Shown here: piece by piece, positions 1-3,000 of the stretch | Layout of the letters: each line of letters starts with the position of its first letter | How positions within the stretch are numbered: position 1 is the first letter of the stretch | Virus record (IMG/VR): IMGVR_UViG_2700989171_000012 | Strand: one strand, 5' to 3' | Length of the DNA: 15,767 bases | From: a virus | Lineage: Duplodnaviria; Heunggongvirae; Uroviricota; Caudoviricetes | Position numbers: made by a program

Positions 1-3000
1 ATGAGCAGAGCACTTAACAAACTGAGCGATACACAGCTGAGGAAAATCAACGGCACACCCGCCCAAAAAACAGCCTTTCTTAATGACGGTGGAAACCTGA
101 GCGTCAGGCATTCAACCAGTGGCCTTTTAACCTGGTATTTCACTTACAGGGCCGGAACGGGAAGGGGGGCACCACCGGAACGCATTAAGCTGGGAAATTA
201 TCCTGATCTGAGCCTGAAATCAGCCAGGGAAAAAGCCGCCCAGTGTCGCGCATGGCTGGCAGAGGGGAAAAATCCACGTCATGAGCTTAATTACACCGTA
301 CAGGAAGCGTTAAAGCCGGTAACGGTTGGCGATGCGCTCACCTACTGGCTTGAGTCGTACGCAAAGGAAAACCGCGTGGATTATGCCGCCCTGAAAAAGC
401 GCCTTAATAATCACGTAATACAGCACATTGGTGCTATGCCGCTGGATAAATGCGAGCTACGGCACTGGCTGGCCTGTTTTGACCAGGTGGCAAAGCGAAC
501 GCCTGTTACTGCCGGATTCTTGCTACAGACGTGCAAACAGGCGCTTAAGTTCTGCCGGAGGCGGCGCTATGCAATCAGCAACGTTCTTGATGATATGAGT
601 GTGGCGGACGTTGGGAAAAAACCGGATATAAGCGAGCGTGTCTTAAGCACCAAAGAACTGGGCGAATTATTGCAGGCACTGGACAAAAAAATATTCTCCC
701 CCTACTACATCGCGTTAATCCGCCTCCTGATTGTGTTCGGATGCCGGACGGTAGAACTGAGGTTATCGGAGATCAGCGAGTGGGATTTTACCGAAATGCT
801 CTGGACCGTGCCGAAAGAACACAGCAAAACGAAGGTGGCAATATTCCGGCCCATACCGGAAGCAATACTGCCGTTCGTCACGCAGCTGGTGGAGCAGAAC
901 AGGCACACGGGCTTATTGCTGGGGGAAGTGAAACAGGAAACAAGCGTGTCGCAGTACGGCAGATTAGCGCACAGGAGGCTAAATCACCCTCACTGGTCAC
1001 TACATGACATCCGGCGCACCTTTACAACGATGCTGAACGATTTAGGCGTGGATCCTCACGTCGTGGAGCAGCTTACAGGCCACCAGATGCCAGGAATGCA
1101 GCGAGTTTATAATCATTCCCGTTATCTGGATGCTAAACGCAATGCGCTGGATATGTGGACGGAGCGGTTAGGGATACTGGCGGGAACACATGAAAACGTA
1201 ACCACGCTACCAGTAGCCAGAAGAAAATAATTTTTTTCGTGTTTTTTCAGTATGCGCATACTGGATATGCGAACAGATACAACGTGCAACAATGAGCAAC
1301 AATGCGGAACAACTACGAACAAGAGGTGAAAAAGTGTACAGATTTATAAGTAGCTGATTTTTAATGTGTTACTGATTTTTTATACACTAGCGAATCACTC
1401 TTTAAATAGCGAGAAAAAAGGCATGAAACAATATTTTATGCCTTTGTATTAACATGAATTTAAAGGATTTTATCCTGATTATTCCTCTTTCTGTAAACCA
1501 TACGGCCTCAACATTTGCCAACTCTGAATCATCCTGACACAATCAGACACATCCCAACGCAATAGAACACGAAATAACTCTTTAAGAAACGAAAGGGGGC
1601 AATAGTGTTAAGCACTGATCGGTTTATACGTGAAAAAGAATGCGAAAAGCTAACAGGCCTTAGCCGCTCATGCCGCTACCGCCTGGAAAAGGCCGGACAA
1701 TTCCCATCACGTCGTAAACTTGGCGGTCGTTCCGTTGGCTGGTCTTTATCCGAGGTTCTGGCCTGGAAGGATAGCTGCAAGGCAGTTCATTAATCACGCT
1801 GGCGGCACGCAGCCGCCACACATCAATCATCTGAACACAGAGCTATAACCATGAAGATTGAATATACGCCAGAACGTGGGCGGGGATTCGTTCGCCCTGG
1901 TGAAACTGGAAAACCACAAAATTGGGGTTTTTCAGGCATAAAAAAAGCGGCCCCGAAATGGAGCCGCCTTTCTGAACAGATAACCCGCTGCGCCGTTTGT
2001 GTGTGTGATCCCAAACATAAGCACGGGGATGATAGCCGCTATCAGGCTGGTGGGCAATGCAATCAGTCTGGTTCAGTGCGTTGCCATAACTGCGAAGTTC
2101 TCTCCTTTGATGAGTATTCTTTAAGGTACTTCTCAAGGGCAAAAGAACACGGCGCGAATCGTTCTGATTCATGCTCTTTCTTTCTGCGTCGTCTTTTTCG
2201 TGCAGGTGATGTTTTTTCGGTTGATTCTTCGTTGGTCATTGTGTGCGCCTGTAAAGCAATGCGCCGTAGTACCTCACACCACGGCGCTGATAGTTTTTAT
2301 CCTTTGGGTTCTATGCCGCGTTGCTGTAATTCTTTGCGGATTATTCGCTTTATCCAGGCAGCAAGAGAATCATCGCCGTCCTGTTGTTGTGCCTTTTCCA
2401 TCTTTTCCCGTAAGTCAGGATCTAAACGGAACTGGAACGGAGGATTACCACGCCTTTCGTTTTTGTGTGTTGACACGTTAATTACACCTCAGGTAATGTA
2501 TTTATGTGTAGTGACACATTACACACAATCAACACAAAAAGCAAAGCCCCGCACTGTAGGAGCAGTAACGGGGCTTCTAACCAACAACGTAAACTAGGAG
2601 CCGTTATGGTTGCCGTAAATCATATACCACACCTTGTACACACACAAACGGCCTTTGTGTGGCGTTTTCTGGCACTGAGTGCCGGAGAATCCCAAATCAT
2701 CCACGTAACCGCTTGGACGGAACGCGAAGCGCGTAGCCGTTGCCCGTCCGGTTGTGTTGCTGTATTCGCCGCCCGTATTCGTCAGGGGGAAACCTATGCA
2801 CAATAAAACCACACCGAACGCAGCAGCCGCCGCACTCACTACGCTGATGCACGCGCTTATTGATATTGAATGCACGGCAGAGCTTGCGCAGGGAGAAGAA
2901 CAGAAAGACCGGACACAGTTCGCCCTGGAATGTATCCGATACATCGCAACGCGGTCACTGAATGACGCTAAAAATATTCTTGTTGCCGATTGTGAAAATG

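What the first reader, a model, noticed from the sequence alone, without database searches (positions are those of the whole stretch)
1794..2605. Roughly 0.8 kb between alpA and the replication operon with no convincing protein gene
The track shows a 248-codon open frame (1851-2597), but its product is Cys/Ser/Arg-rich and low-complexity, it has no SD, and it runs straight through a terminator-like hairpin (1940-1966) and a promoter (2470-2499). The minus strand holds two short protein-like ORFs in a single frame, 2401 down to 2297 (34 aa) and 2239 down to 2063 (58 aa, with a basic stretch ARKRRRRKKEHE), followed by that minus-sense terminator. A GC-rich hairpin at 1800-1818 sits just after the alpA stop. 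The region may encode a regulatory RNA or small antisense-transcribed proteins that control the switch, by analogy with the RNA-based immunity of P4, but this is speculative.
Basis: partly seen in the sequence, partly recalled or inferred. Interest (0 to 1): 0.55.

Follow-up and report, generated by a model that had tools for sequence, protein, structure and literature searches.

The report
Leftward repressor operon, not empty DNA
The supposedly gene-less 0.8 kb between alpA and the replication genes of this phage satellite holds a leftward two-gene operon for an Arc-like repressor and a small basic protein, its operators, and probably a small antisense RNA; the long rightward reading frame is a by-product of the genes on the other strand.

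Summary
The window is a capsid-forming PICI-type satellite. The minus strand carries a terminated two-gene operon. The first gene is a 59-aa ribbon-helix-helix (Arc-like) protein, 2476..2297, with a GTG start. The second is a 58-aa basic protein, 2239..2063. A strong intrinsic terminator follows at 1966..1933. The RHH gene is conserved across Enterobacterales with a clean coding signature in its own frame. Its fold matches Arc, CopG and NikR. It occurs in specificity classes whose DNA-reading strand changes together with the repeats around the rightward promoter. The 248-codon + ORF shares third codon positions with both minus genes. Its amino-acid changes are radical, it runs through terminators and promoters, and the leader changes length by non-multiples of three. 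It is a shadow ORF, yet databases hold about 1000 such "proteins", some named Icd-like or ash. The conserved hairpin at 2543-2577 is a minus-strand terminator. Together with an invariant TAnnnT at 2624..2619 it predicts a roughly 75-80-nt cis-antisense RNA over the icd ribosome-binding site. This resembles P22 immI, not P4. Function is inferred.

The parts
1605..1793 (+). alpA (context; left boundary of the region)
   Evidence: Pfam Phage_AlpA, E 5e-18.
1800..1818 (+). GC-rich hairpin just after the alpA stop, no U-tail; role unknown
   Evidence: -13.9 kcal/mol, z -3.4. In L003/L005 a C-to-T change in the right arm keeps pairing as G.U only on the + strand (by inspection).
1851..2597 (+). 248-codon shadow ORF: not a gene, an open frame whose third codon positions coincide with those of the two minus-strand genes
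   Evidence: No family hits. For the same DNA, pairwise identity is 67% with substitution BLOSUM -0.86, against 84% and +0.35 in the RHH frame. Leader length varies 128-139 nt, mod 3 = 19/18/4 loci. It contains a terminator and promoters. Its length and fusion partners vary in databases.
1933..1966 (-). Intrinsic terminator of the leftward operon (stem 1966..1940, U-run 1939..1933)
   Evidence: It is conserved in the E. coli loci. Analogous A-run plus hairpin terminators appear in the + frame as 'KTKAAL..' in other genera.
2063..2239 (-). orf58: a 58-aa protein with a basic N-terminus (ARKRRRRKK) and one long helix; function unknown
   Evidence: PHROG 21027, E 2.9e-12. 24 homologue clusters, all E. 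coli/Shigella, with an invariant core ESERFAPC.F.L and in-frame 2-codon indels. Core codon entropy is pos2 < pos1 < pos3. It always lies 57 nt after the RHH stop. AF2 gives helix 24-55, pLDDT 71.
2261..2287 (-). Hairpin between the RHH gene and orf58 (possible attenuator or processing site)
   Evidence: Terminator-like hit. 11-bp stem, -21.1 kcal/mol, z -2.6. It is retained in L002, where the repressor gene has been replaced.
2297..2476 (-). 59-aa ribbon-helix-helix (Arc-like) repressor gene, GTG start
   Evidence: phrog_228 'Arc-like repressor', 2e-6; YlcI_YnfO_N, 20 bits, below cut-off.
2470..2499 (+). Rightward promoter of the icd-primase operon (-35 TTGACA 2470-2475, -10 TAATGT 2494-2499); the -35 overlaps the RHH start codon
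   Evidence: The -35 is present in 24-26 of 26 sequences. T2494, A2495 and T2499 are 26/26. Promoter activity itself is inferred.
2481..2524 (.). Putative operators: ATTACA-N5-GGTAAT (2481-2497) and the palindrome GTGTAGTG-ACA-CATTACAC (2506-2524); half-site centres 11 bp apart within each
   Evidence: Inverted and direct repeats. Nearly invariant in class-A loci. Replaced by different repeats wherever the RHH beta-strand differs.
2516..2544 (-). Candidate promoter for the RHH operon (-35 TTGCTT 2544..2539, -10 TAATGT 2521..2516)
   Evidence: By inspection. The -10 positions are conserved in 22-26 of 26 sequences, but they also lie within an operator half-site. Weakly supported.
2533..2613 (-). 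Predicted cis-antisense sRNA: 5' stem-loop (2611..2579) with the anti-SD CUCCUA in its loop, then terminator hairpin (2577..2543) and U-tail (2542..2533)
   Evidence: Fold -30.5 kcal/mol, z -3.3. The terminator is 94% paired on the minus strand against 88% on the plus, with 33 G.U against 5 A.C cells and 8 of 13 pairs compensatory. RNAalifold gives 22 pairs, 10 with double changes. The covariance model finds one hit per switch module, on the repressor strand throughout; the window hit is 68 bits.
2619..2647 (-). Predicted promoter of the antisense RNA (-10 TATGAT 2624..2619, -35 TTGTGT 2647..2642), inside the first codons of icd
   Evidence: A2619 26/26, T2623 26/26 (a third codon position of icd) and A2624 25/26, with the middle three bases free. 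The best minus-strand promoter sits at this same offset in 18 of 38 loci.
2606..2806 (+). Icd-like gene, first gene of the rightward operon (true start ATG 2606 after SD AGGAG, not ATG 2504)
   Evidence: NCBIfam phage_ICD_like, 6e-18. SD and ATG are conserved.

Best explanation
The region is the regulatory switch of a capsid-forming PICI-type satellite.

The minus strand carries a short operon:
- A 59-aa ribbon-helix-helix repressor (2476..2297).
- After an intercistronic hairpin, a 58-aa basic protein of unknown role (2239..2063).
- An intrinsic terminator at 1966..1933.

Inferred mechanism. The RHH protein binds as dimers to TGTAAT/ATTACA half-sites spaced 11 bp apart. These half-sites lie between and just downstream of the -35 and -10 of the rightward promoter (2470-2499). 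Binding shuts off the icd-primase operon and probably autoregulates the repressor. A second negative layer is a roughly 75-80-nt antisense RNA. It starts at about 2612 inside icd and ends at the conserved minus-strand terminator (2577..2543). It is complementary to the icd Shine-Dalgarno sequence and start codon.

The 248-codon + ORF is a non-coding shadow frame.

Shown here: the gene content, coding signatures, RHH fold, terminators, RNA covariation, and the co-variation of repressor class with operator repeats.

Inferred: DNA binding, repression, transcription of the sRNA, and how AlpA or the helper phage overrides the system.
For: Context. The window encodes int, alpA, icd-like, primase, major head protein, protease, portal, HNH, TerS and TerL.

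RHH gene.
- 117 homologue clusters, mostly 59 aa, across Enterobacterales, the Orbaceae group and Pasteurellaceae.
- 43 loci in species genomes.
- Codon entropy is pos1 0.47, pos2 0.24, pos3 1.28.
- Pairwise amino-acid identity is 84% with conservative substitutions in this frame, against 67% and radical substitutions in the + frame.
- PHROG 'Arc-like repressor', E 2e-6.
- AF2 pLDDT 79, helices 20-33 and 38-52.
- Foldseek hits are almost all RHH proteins (NikR, CopA, Arc 1par/1bdv, CopG, PutA, AmrZ, ParD), most of them at rmsd 0.6-1.0 A.
- hhalign places PPFQFRLD on Arc's PQFNLRW strand.

Repressor and operator change together.
- Class PPFQFRLDP goes with TGTAAT/ATTACA sites.
- Class NKQIALRVEP goes with GGTTGACA repeats.
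- Class PPYQMRLPE / DQYQIRLAH goes with two GTAATTAC palindromes.
- A YlcI/YnfO-type replacement has its own inverted repeats.
- The three RHH classes share nearly the same C-terminal half; the YlcI/YnfO replacement is a different, 101-aa protein.

Promoter. The key positions are invariant.

Terminators..

Antisense RNA..

Annotation. PGAP already calls the two minus genes in related islands.
Against: - There are no expression or binding data. The promoters, including the RHH operon's own, are consensus-level predictions, and the scan tool did not report them.
- Pfam has no RHH hit. The NCBIfam YlcI_YnfO_N score of 20 is below the cut-off of 30.
- Foldseek E-values exceed 1, as expected for a 59-aa monomer, and the beta-strand is not formed in the monomer model.
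- Published work on these islands assigns control to the activator AlpA and reports no repressor (PMC6092414; the cf-PICI preprint never uses the word). The RHH may therefore be a modulator rather than the master switch.
- The same cassette sits upstream of BrxR/BREX on an IncY plasmid, so it is a portable regulatory module, not something specific to satellites.
- The support for orf58 is modest: narrow taxonomic range and a small codon sample.
Confidence: 0.72

Rival explanations
1. The 248-codon + ORF is a real protein gene, an N-terminally extended 'prophage / Icd-like' protein that overlaps the minus-strand ORFs.
For: - 998 database proteins match it, at lengths 137-434 and identities as low as 51-70% over full length.
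- The frame is stop-free over the RHH gene in 33 of 47 loci. It is often open for 200-600 codons, extending into non-homologous flanks.
- By my count from the lengths, about 13 of 42 loci have at least 200 codons of non-genic open frame. The base rate predicts about 3.
- PGAP uses such proteins to call Icd-like pseudogenes.
Against: - Selection acts on the opposite frame.
- The + frame's second codon position is more variable than its first, and its substitutions are radical (BLOSUM -0.86).
- The leader changes length by non-multiples of three.
- The ORF runs through a strong terminator, promoters and operators.
- There is no Shine-Dalgarno sequence, and the start is not conserved: L004 has a different left flank.
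- No domain hit lies outside the fused Icd or Ash parts.
- Lengths and fusion partners vary with each mosaic module.
- The primase gene in the same window has a 246-codon shadow frame.
- The minus genes have few or no Tyr, and most of their His, Gln and Tyr codons follow codons that cannot complete a + frame stop, so few stops can arise.
Confidence: 0.04
2. The RHH gene and orf58 form a type II toxin-antitoxin (addiction) pair rather than the switch repressor.
For: - The arrangement, a small RHH gene upstream of a small partner in one operon, is typical of TA pairs.
- There is a weak NCBIfam hit to a VapB-family antitoxin (E 0.012).
- Fold hits include the RHH antitoxins CopA(SO), ParD2, MazE9 and VapB.
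Against: - orf58 is confined to E. coli and Shigella.
- In other genera the RHH gene stands alone or is followed by unrelated cargo.
- The RHH protein has almost no C-terminal tail beyond helix 2 with which to neutralise a toxin.
- orf58 has no Pfam, NCBIfam or PADLOC match and is predicted as a disordered basic tail plus one helix.
- The operators overlap the rightward promoter and change with the repressor class.
Confidence: 0.08
3. The region encodes a P4 CI / P1 C4-type immunity RNA, processed from the sense leader, that causes premature termination or blocks icd translation.
For: - An icd-like gene sits directly downstream of a conserved structured leader, as in P1 c4-icd-ant (my recollection of the P1 system, not tested here).
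- The hairpin 2543-2577 is very stable on the + strand as well (-19.7 kcal/mol, z -4.2).
Against: - No Rfam hit for C4 or any other family, even at E 10 on a 181-nt slice.
- The variants CGAGGC and CAGGGC pair as U.G only on the minus strand: 33 such cells, against 5 that favour the + strand.
- The U-tail exists only on the minus strand, at a mean of 6.2 of 9 nt against 1.25.
- G.U pairs at three further helix positions fit only the minus strand.
Confidence: 0.04
4. The minus-strand hairpin is only an insulating terminator or attenuator in a longer leftward transcript that also expresses the RHH gene. It is not the end of a discrete regulatory sRNA.
For: - The RHH operon's own promoter is poorly defined.
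- The predicted antisense promoter and the rightward promoter would face each other about 106 bp apart. That arrangement could act by transcriptional interference alone.
Against: - The hairpin plus 6-7 U is a canonical strong terminator.
- The 5' stem-loop presenting the anti-SD covaries: CGTTA/TAACG, CATTA/TAATG, GTTAG/CTAAC.
- The whole 82-nt unit is conserved as one block in all repressor classes.
Confidence: 0.12

Closest known systems
Phage P22 immunity I region (Arc and Mnt RHH repressors plus sar antisense RNA controlling ant)
   Same: - A small RHH repressor binds repeats that overlap a promoter.
- An opposing small antisense RNA is directed at the regulated gene.
- P22 immI is described as two protein repressors (mnt, arc) and an antisense RNA (sar) controlling ant (PMC2629481).
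- The RHH beta-strand aligns with Arc's in the same register, and Arc structures are among the fold hits.
   Different: - The regulated operon here is icd-like plus primase/replication, not an antirepressor.
- There is one repressor gene, not two.
- The predicted RNA overlaps the first gene's ribosome-binding site and 5' codons.
- There is no detectable sequence homology to sar (no Rfam hit).
- Sequence similarity to Arc is marginal (hhalign E 0.0055, probability 7%).
YlcI/YnfO family (NCBIfam NF041551) and PHROG 228 'Arc-like repressor'
   Same: - The window protein hits PHROG 228 at 2e-6.
- It aligns to the 42-residue YlcI_YnfO_N model over residues 17-53.
- PGAP names a 64-aa version of the same ORF 'YlcI/YnfO family'.
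- A bona fide 101-aa YlcI/YnfO protein occupies the same slot in L002.
   Different: - The NCBIfam score is 20 bits against a cut-off of 30.
- Direct profile comparison with the L002 protein is insignificant (E 0.15).
- I found no experimental work on YlcI or YnfO.
P4 CI RNA / P1-P7 C4 RNA immunity upstream of icd
   Same: A structured conserved leader lies directly upstream of an icd-like gene in a satellite with int, alpA/vis and primase.
   Different: - No covariance-model match.
- The structure is selected on the opposite strand and ends in a terminator there.
- A protein repressor is present as well.
SaPI / Gram-positive PICI Stl (Rpr) master repressor with divergent str
   Same: A leftward repressor gene faces the rightward replication operon next to int. 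This is the layout described for Gram-positive PICIs (PMC6092414).
   Different: - Stl proteins are larger and unrelated to this RHH protein.
[quoted passage not shown]
- Derepression by a helper-phage protein is untested here.

Membership tests
Ribbon-helix-helix (Arc/MetJ/CopG) DNA-binding superfamily | Beta-strand, helix, helix fold of about 45 residues | tested here: met
   AF2 gives helices 20-33 and 38-52 at pLDDT above 90, preceded by an extended N-terminal segment. Nearly all of the 34 Foldseek PDB matches are RHH proteins, most of them at rmsd 0.6-1.0 A over 33-41 columns, although all E-values exceed 1. The strand itself is not formed in the monomer model.
Ribbon-helix-helix (Arc/MetJ/CopG) DNA-binding superfamily | Significant match to a curated RHH sequence profile | tested here: inconclusive
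   PHROG 228 'Arc-like repressor' hits at E 2e-6. Pfam has no RHH hit. NCBIfam YlcI_YnfO_N scores 20 bits, below its cut-off of 30. The PDB sequence search found nothing.
Ribbon-helix-helix (Arc/MetJ/CopG) DNA-binding superfamily | Binds repeated operator half-sites about one helical turn apart as a dimer of dimers | not testable with these tools
   Half-sites TGTAAT/ATTACA lie 11 bp apart in two pairs. Operator repeats change with the beta-strand class. Binding itself is untested.
P1 C4 / P4 CI-type immunity RNA (Rfam C4 family) | Match to the covariance model; sense-strand leader RNA upstream of icd or the replication genes | tested here: not met
   No such hit at E up to 1 over 1200-3900 or up to 10 over 2480-2660. 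The structure is favoured on the opposite strand.
Cis-antisense regulatory sRNA (P22 sar-like class) | Own promoter, complementarity to the target's ribosome-binding site, intrinsic terminator, conserved structure | tested here: inconclusive
   The terminator and structure show covariation and G.U strand bias. The -10 TAnnnT is invariant, including at a wobble position, and sits at the same offset in 18 of 38 loci. Complementarity to the SD and ATG follows from position. Transcription has not been shown.
Host cell division inhibitor Icd-like protein (NF033153), as database entries label the + ORF | Match to the Icd-like domain model | tested here: not met
   The 248-aa product has no NCBIfam, Pfam or PHROG hit. 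Only the separate 66-aa ORF 2606..2806 matches (6e-18). Long database 'Icd-like' or 'ash' proteins are in-frame fusions of the shadow frame with a downstream real domain.
Type II toxin-antitoxin pair with an RHH antitoxin | Conserved cognate toxin gene adjacent, and an antitoxin C-terminal toxin-binding region | tested here: not met
   The partner gene is not conserved outside E. coli and Shigella and is absent or different elsewhere. It hits no toxin family. The RHH protein ends 7 residues after helix 2.
Capsid-forming PICI (context of the window) | int, alpA and primase together with its own capsid, protease, portal, HNH, TerS and TerL genes | tested here: met
   The layout is as described for EcCIEDL933 (10.1101/2022.09.08.507074).

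The most novel reading that the evidence does not exclude
Gram-negative PICIs and cf-PICIs, thought to be governed only by the activator AlpA, carry a conserved three-part switch. Its parts are an Arc-like RHH repressor with a swappable DNA-reading strand, a matching operator set over the replication-operon promoter, and an undescribed roughly 75-80-nt cis-antisense RNA that blocks the icd ribosome-binding site. On this reading the switch is the missing 'master repressor' layer of these satellites. It is also a portable cassette, reused for example upstream of BrxR/BREX on P1-type (IncY) plasmids. A more speculative addition is that the recurrent openness of the + frame is itself selected, for instance so that translation protects read-through transcripts from alpA. 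I rate that addition at about 5%.
Probability: 0.35. Interest if true: 0.7.

Novelty: new variant of a known kind. Interest (0 to 1): 0.5.

Why it matters
The published model for Gram-negative phage-inducible islands has an activator (AlpA) and states that a global repressor is unclear (PMC6092414). A conserved repressor, operator and antisense-RNA module sitting exactly between alpA and the replication operon gives three directly testable candidates:
- what keeps these islands silent;
- what sets their 'immunity type';
- what the helper phage must overcome.

The module matched in 1247 of 5426 complete E. coli genomes. It also occurs across many Enterobacterales genera and on plasmids, where it sits upstream of a BREX defence locus.

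There is a practical point as well. Public databases hold about a thousand spurious proteins translated from the shadow frame, some named Icd-like or ash family. RefSeq pseudogene calls built on them mask the real genes on the other strand.

Tried and rejected
- **Rfam.** A scan of 1200-3900 at E up to 1 and of 2480-2660 at E up to 10 gave only sub-threshold chance hits. No C4/CI-like RNA.
- **Family scans of the 248-aa ORF.** Pfam, NCBIfam and PHROG gave nothing.
- **PDB sequence search with the RHH profile.** Nothing meaningful.
- **PADLOC.** Scans of orf58, the RHH protein, icd and the neighbouring cargo genes gave nothing.
- **Phage collection.** No DNA match for the RHH-plus-leader cassette. 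There were only 4 weak protein matches, at most 54% identical.
- **dN/dS.** I considered it for deciding between the two strands and rejected it. The two frames share third positions, so synonymous and non-synonymous sites coincide. I used pos1 against pos2 entropy and substitution conservativeness instead.
- **An error of mine.** I first equated + frame stops with TTA/CTA/TCA codons in the minus genes. That holds for the other antisense frame. In the wobble-coincident frame, stops need NNY-TAN or NNT-CAN. The direct stop counts are unaffected.
- **In-frame continuity into icd.** I tested whether it is selected. Leader lengths give mod 3 = 19/18/4 loci, so there is no strong preference.
- **Literature.** Searches for YlcI/YnfO, 'Icd-like' with antisense RNA, and cf-PICI regulation found no prior description of this module.
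- **Not followed up.** No fold search was run on the orf58 model (a single helix, pLDDT 71).
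Full report
**Context.** The window is a phage satellite of the capsid-forming PICI type. It encodes:
- an integrase (1..1230);
- AlpA (1605..1793; Pfam Phage_AlpA, 5e-18);
- an Icd-like protein (2606..2806; NCBIfam, 6e-18);
- a primase (3767..5515);
- major head protein, maturation protease, portal, HNH endonuclease, TerS and TerL.

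A Shigella flexneri chromosome carries the same locus: all five tested products, spanning window 1605-2806, are 100% identical there (L006). Parts of the 812-bp region match in 1247 of 5426 complete E. coli genomes.

**Checking the observation.**
- The + ORF 1851..2597 has 248 codons. Its product is 11.7% Ser, 9.3% Arg and 6.5% Cys, and no Shine-Dalgarno sequence precedes it.
- The hairpin 1940-1966 folds on the minus strand into a 14-bp stem (-21.7 kcal/mol, z -3.6) followed by seven U. That is a canonical intrinsic terminator for leftward transcription. On the + strand it is weak (z -0.9).
- TTGACA (2470-2475) and TAATGT (2494-2499), 18 nt apart, are in the sequence. The simple scan did not list them.
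- The hairpin 1800-1818 is stable (z -3.4) but has no U-tail.
- The two minus ORFs are in one frame.

The correction is that the first minus ORF starts at GTG 2476 and is 59 aa long.

**The 59-aa ORF is a real ribbon-helix-helix gene.**
- It hits PHROG 228 'Arc-like repressor' (2e-6). It aligns to NCBIfam YlcI_YnfO_N below the cut-off (20 against 30 bits). Pfam finds nothing.
- It has 117 homologue clusters, mostly exactly 59 aa. They come from Escherichia, Shigella, Citrobacter, Serratia, Klebsiella, Pantoea, Pectobacterium, Yersinia, Xenorhabdus, Proteus/Providencia, Frischella and Mannheimia.
- 43 loci were recovered from one-genome-per-species contigs.
- In 37 unique cross-genus sequences the column entropy at its codon positions is 0.47 / 0.24 / 1.28 bits. 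Invariant columns number 18, 23 and 1 of 47.
- Its translation is 84% identical pairwise, with conservative substitutions (mean BLOSUM62 +0.35).
- AlphaFold gives two confident helices (20-33, 38-52) after an extended N-terminal segment (pLDDT 79).
- The Foldseek PDB list is almost entirely RHH proteins: NikR, CopA(SO), Arc, CopG, PutA, AmrZ, ParD, MazE9 and NikA. Most are at 0.6-1.0 A rmsd, though E-values exceed 1 for so small a monomer.
- A profile alignment puts NPPFQFRLDP on Arc's MPQFNLRWPR strand.
- RefSeq already annotates this CDS in relatives, as WP_000103622.1 and WP_000103621.1 'hypothetical protein', and a 64-aa version as 'YlcI/YnfO family protein'.

**The repressor and its operators vary together.** This is the strongest sequence-level argument for function. 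All class-A proteins (strand PPFQFRLDP) sit next to the same repeats. These are ATTACA-N5-TGTAAT between the -35 and -10 of the rightward promoter, and the palindrome GTGTAATG-ACA-CATTACAC just downstream. In the window they lie at 2481-2497 and 2506-2524, with half-site centres 11 bp apart within each pair.

| Repressor class | DNA-reading strand | Repeats at the promoter | Loci |
|---|---|---|---|
| A | PPFQFRLDP | TGTAAT / ATTACA | window, L008, L042 |
| B | NKQIALRVEP | GGTTGACA repeats | L055, L057 |
| C | PPYQMRLPE or DQYQIRLAH | two (T/G)GTAATTAC(A/C) palindromes | L001, L047 |
| replacement | 101-aa YlcI/YnfO protein | its own inverted repeats | L002 |

The three RHH classes (A-C) keep a nearly identical C-terminal half, (S/T)WIKR(I/V)(I/L)RKELQQRGIE; the L002 replacement is a different, 101-aa protein. 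This is the mosaic pattern of phage immunity regions. It implies a specific repressor-operator pair, but binding has not been shown.

**The second gene.** The ORF 2239..2063 (58 aa) hits PHROG 21027 (2.9e-12).
- It has 24 homologue clusters, all from E. coli or Shigella.
- The core ESERFAPC.F.L is invariant. The family also shows a basic N-terminus, in-frame two-codon indels and variable C-termini.
- In seven DNA variants the core shows pos2 < pos1 < pos3 variability (0.25 / 0.36 / 0.64). The N-terminal block is ambiguous.
- It starts 57 nt after the RHH stop in the window and in each of the five E. coli assemblies retrieved by orf58 homologue look-up.
- AlphaFold predicts a disordered basic tail and one long helix (pLDDT 71).
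- No toxin or defence family matches.
- In other genera the RHH gene is followed by unrelated genes or by none.

I therefore treat orf58 as variable cargo of the repressor operon, with unknown function.

A conserved 11-bp-stem hairpin (2287..2261, z -2.6) separates the two genes. It stays with orf58 when the repressor is swapped.

**The 248-codon + ORF is a shadow frame.** Its third codon positions coincide with those of both minus genes; all three fall at coordinates equal to 2 mod 3. Synonymous drift in the real genes is therefore largely silent in it.
- On the same DNA its translation is only 67% identical, with radical substitutions (BLOSUM -0.86). Its second position is more variable than its first.
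- The segment between the RHH start and the icd ATG varies from 128 to 139 nt, with residues mod 3 of 19, 18 and 4 loci. The frame relation to the downstream gene is therefore not conserved.
- In L004 the left flank, and hence the ORF start, is different DNA.

These have lengths of 137-434 aa. Wherever they carry a recognisable domain, it is a downstream Icd-like or Ash segment fused in frame. PGAP then uses such entries to call 'Icd-like protein, incomplete' pseudogenes on top of the real minus-strand genes.

One thing remains unexplained. The frame is open more often and for longer than I expected.
- It is stop-free over the RHH gene in 33 of 47 loci and open for 200-600 codons in many.
- By my count from the lengths, about 13 of 42 loci have at least 200 non-genic open codons. 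The local base rate, 16 secondary ORFs of at least 200 codons in 200 kb, predicts about 3.

Contributing factors are these:
- The minus genes have few or no Tyr, and most of their His, Gln and Tyr codons follow codons that cannot complete a + frame stop, and + frame stops require NNY-TAN or NNT-CAN.
- The terminators are A-run plus GC hairpin and so contain no stop codons.
- The leader is inherited almost unchanged.
- The primase gene in this window has a 246-codon shadow frame too.

I do not think these fully account for the excess, and I record it as open.

**A conserved antisense element at the right edge.** The hairpin at 2543-2577 and its flanks are conserved from E. coli to Gilliamella and Frischella.
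- In 36 sequences 94% of cells pair on the minus strand, and 8 of 13 pairs show double (compensatory) changes. None of 500 shuffles reached the covariation score.
- 33 cells are G.U on the minus strand, which would be A.C on the plus strand. Only 5 go the other way. Pairing is 94% on the minus strand against 88% on the plus.
- The U-tail exists only on the minus strand, at 6.2 of 9 nt against 1.25.

So it is a leftward terminator, although no leftward gene lies upstream of it.

Thirteen nucleotides inside icd, the minus strand has a TAnnnT. T2624 is present in 25/26 sequences, A2623 in 26/26 and T2619 in 26/26, while the three middle bases vary freely. Position 2623 is a third codon position of icd. 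The best-scoring minus-strand promoter sits at exactly this offset in 18 of 38 loci.

The predicted transcript, about 2612 to about 2536, folds at -30.5 kcal/mol (z -3.3). It forms a 5' stem-loop that presents the anti-Shine-Dalgarno CUCCUA in its loop, followed by the terminator.
- RNAalifold on 28 sequences gives 22 pairs, 10 with double changes. These include the small stem as CGTTA/TAACG, CATTA/TAATG and GTTAG/CTAAC.
- It also gives further G.U pairs that are valid only on the minus strand.
- A covariance model finds one copy per switch module in 22 sources, two where the module is duplicated. The copy is on the repressor strand throughout and occurs with all repressor classes. The window has a single hit at 2533-2613(-), 68 bits.
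- Rfam has no matching family.

It is not a P4/P1-type sense-leader RNA. Transcription has not been demonstrated.

**Mechanism proposed.** Shown: the parts listed above. Inferred:
1. In the quiescent island the leftward operon is expressed, and RHH tetramers occupy the two operators.
2. That blocks the rightward promoter, whose -35 overlaps the RHH start codon, and probably autoregulates the repressor.
3. The antisense RNA pairs with any leader transcript and occludes the icd ribosome-binding site.
4. Because the antisense and rightward promoters face each other about 106 bp apart, transcriptional interference may add bistability.
5. AlpA, which the literature shows is the helper-induced activator of these islands (PMC6092414; cf-PICI preprint), must then override or bypass this block. 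How it does so is unknown.

The RHH operon's own promoter is my weakest assignment (TTGCTT-17-TAATGT, 2544..2516).

**Comparison with known systems.** The closest functional analogue is the P22 immI region: Arc and Mnt RHH repressors plus sar antisense RNA controlling ant (PMC2629481). The layout, with a leftward repressor facing the replication operon beside int, matches Stl/Rpr of Gram-positive PICIs. For the Gram-negative islands, however, the field states that a global repressor is unclear.

The RHH-plus-leader cassette, including the antisense-RNA unit, is portable. It is 81% identical on about 100 plasmids. On the IncY plasmid pECO-6dfa it precedes a gene with an Icd-like N-terminus, then a WYL protein and a BREX locus.

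**Verdict.** The finding is real as a set of sequence features, but its headline is wrong. The region is a compact regulatory switch with two minus-strand protein genes and a probable antisense RNA. It is a new variant of a known kind of module, and its role in these satellites has not been described in the papers I could search.

Noticed in passing
window 1851-2597; L001 2932-3525; L002 2942-3499: Public databases hold about 1000 'proteins' translated from the shadow frame. Some are named 'host cell division inhibitor Icd-like' or 'ash family' because the frame runs into a real downstream domain. RefSeq PGAP then annotates incomplete pseudogenes here, on top of the real minus-strand genes.
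   Followed up: yes
L007-L048, around locus coordinates 2300-3900: The frame antisense to the RHH gene is open far more often and for longer than the local base rate predicts. It reaches 200-600 codons and runs into non-homologous flanks and through icd in another frame. Composition and inheritance explain part of this, not clearly all of it.
   Followed up: partly
L003 1739-2990 and L005 1739-2863: Some E. coli islands carry two tandem switch modules: two repressor genes, two orf58-like genes and two copies of the antisense-RNA motif (L003 2236-2318 and 3103-3185). L028 and L036 have two RHH genes in tandem.
   Followed up: partly
L054 (plasmid pECO-6dfa, IncY) 2997-6313: The same RHH, operator and antisense-RNA cassette (81% identical) sits upstream of a gene with an Icd-like N-terminus, then a WYL-domain protein and a BREX system. 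PGAP starts that first gene 92 nt (3400 vs ATG 3308) downstream of the conserved SD-ATG.
   Followed up: partly
window 2557-2571 and 2595-2609: There is a direct repeat, TAGGAGCAGTAACGG and TAGGAGCCGTTATGG. The loop side of the leader hairpin mimics the icd SD-ATG, so the antisense RNA would carry two anti-SD motifs. It was seen in the window type and not checked in other classes.
   Followed up: no
window 2460-2480 and 2501-2521: A 21-nt direct repeat (TTTTTGTGTGTTGACACGTTA and TTTATGTGTAGTGACACATTA, 41 bp apart) spans the rightward -35 / RHH start and the downstream operator. It may be a further layer of operator organisation.
   Followed up: no
window 2504-2806: The ORF list shows a 100-aa ORF from ATG 2504. 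The conserved SD (AGGAG, 2597-2601) and the Icd-like domain indicate that the real start is ATG 2606 (66 aa).
   Followed up: yes
window 4591-5316 (-): A shadow ORF antisense to the primase gene, listed as 241 aa from its first start codon, lies in the same wobble-coincident frame relation. The stop-free run there is 246 codons. Long shadow frames therefore occur elsewhere in this island.
   Followed up: partly
window 1800-1818: The hairpin after alpA keeps its pairing in L003/L005 through a G.U pair that works only on the + strand. This hints at a role in the alpA transcript, such as 3' stabilisation or a protein site. It rests on a single observation.
   Followed up: no
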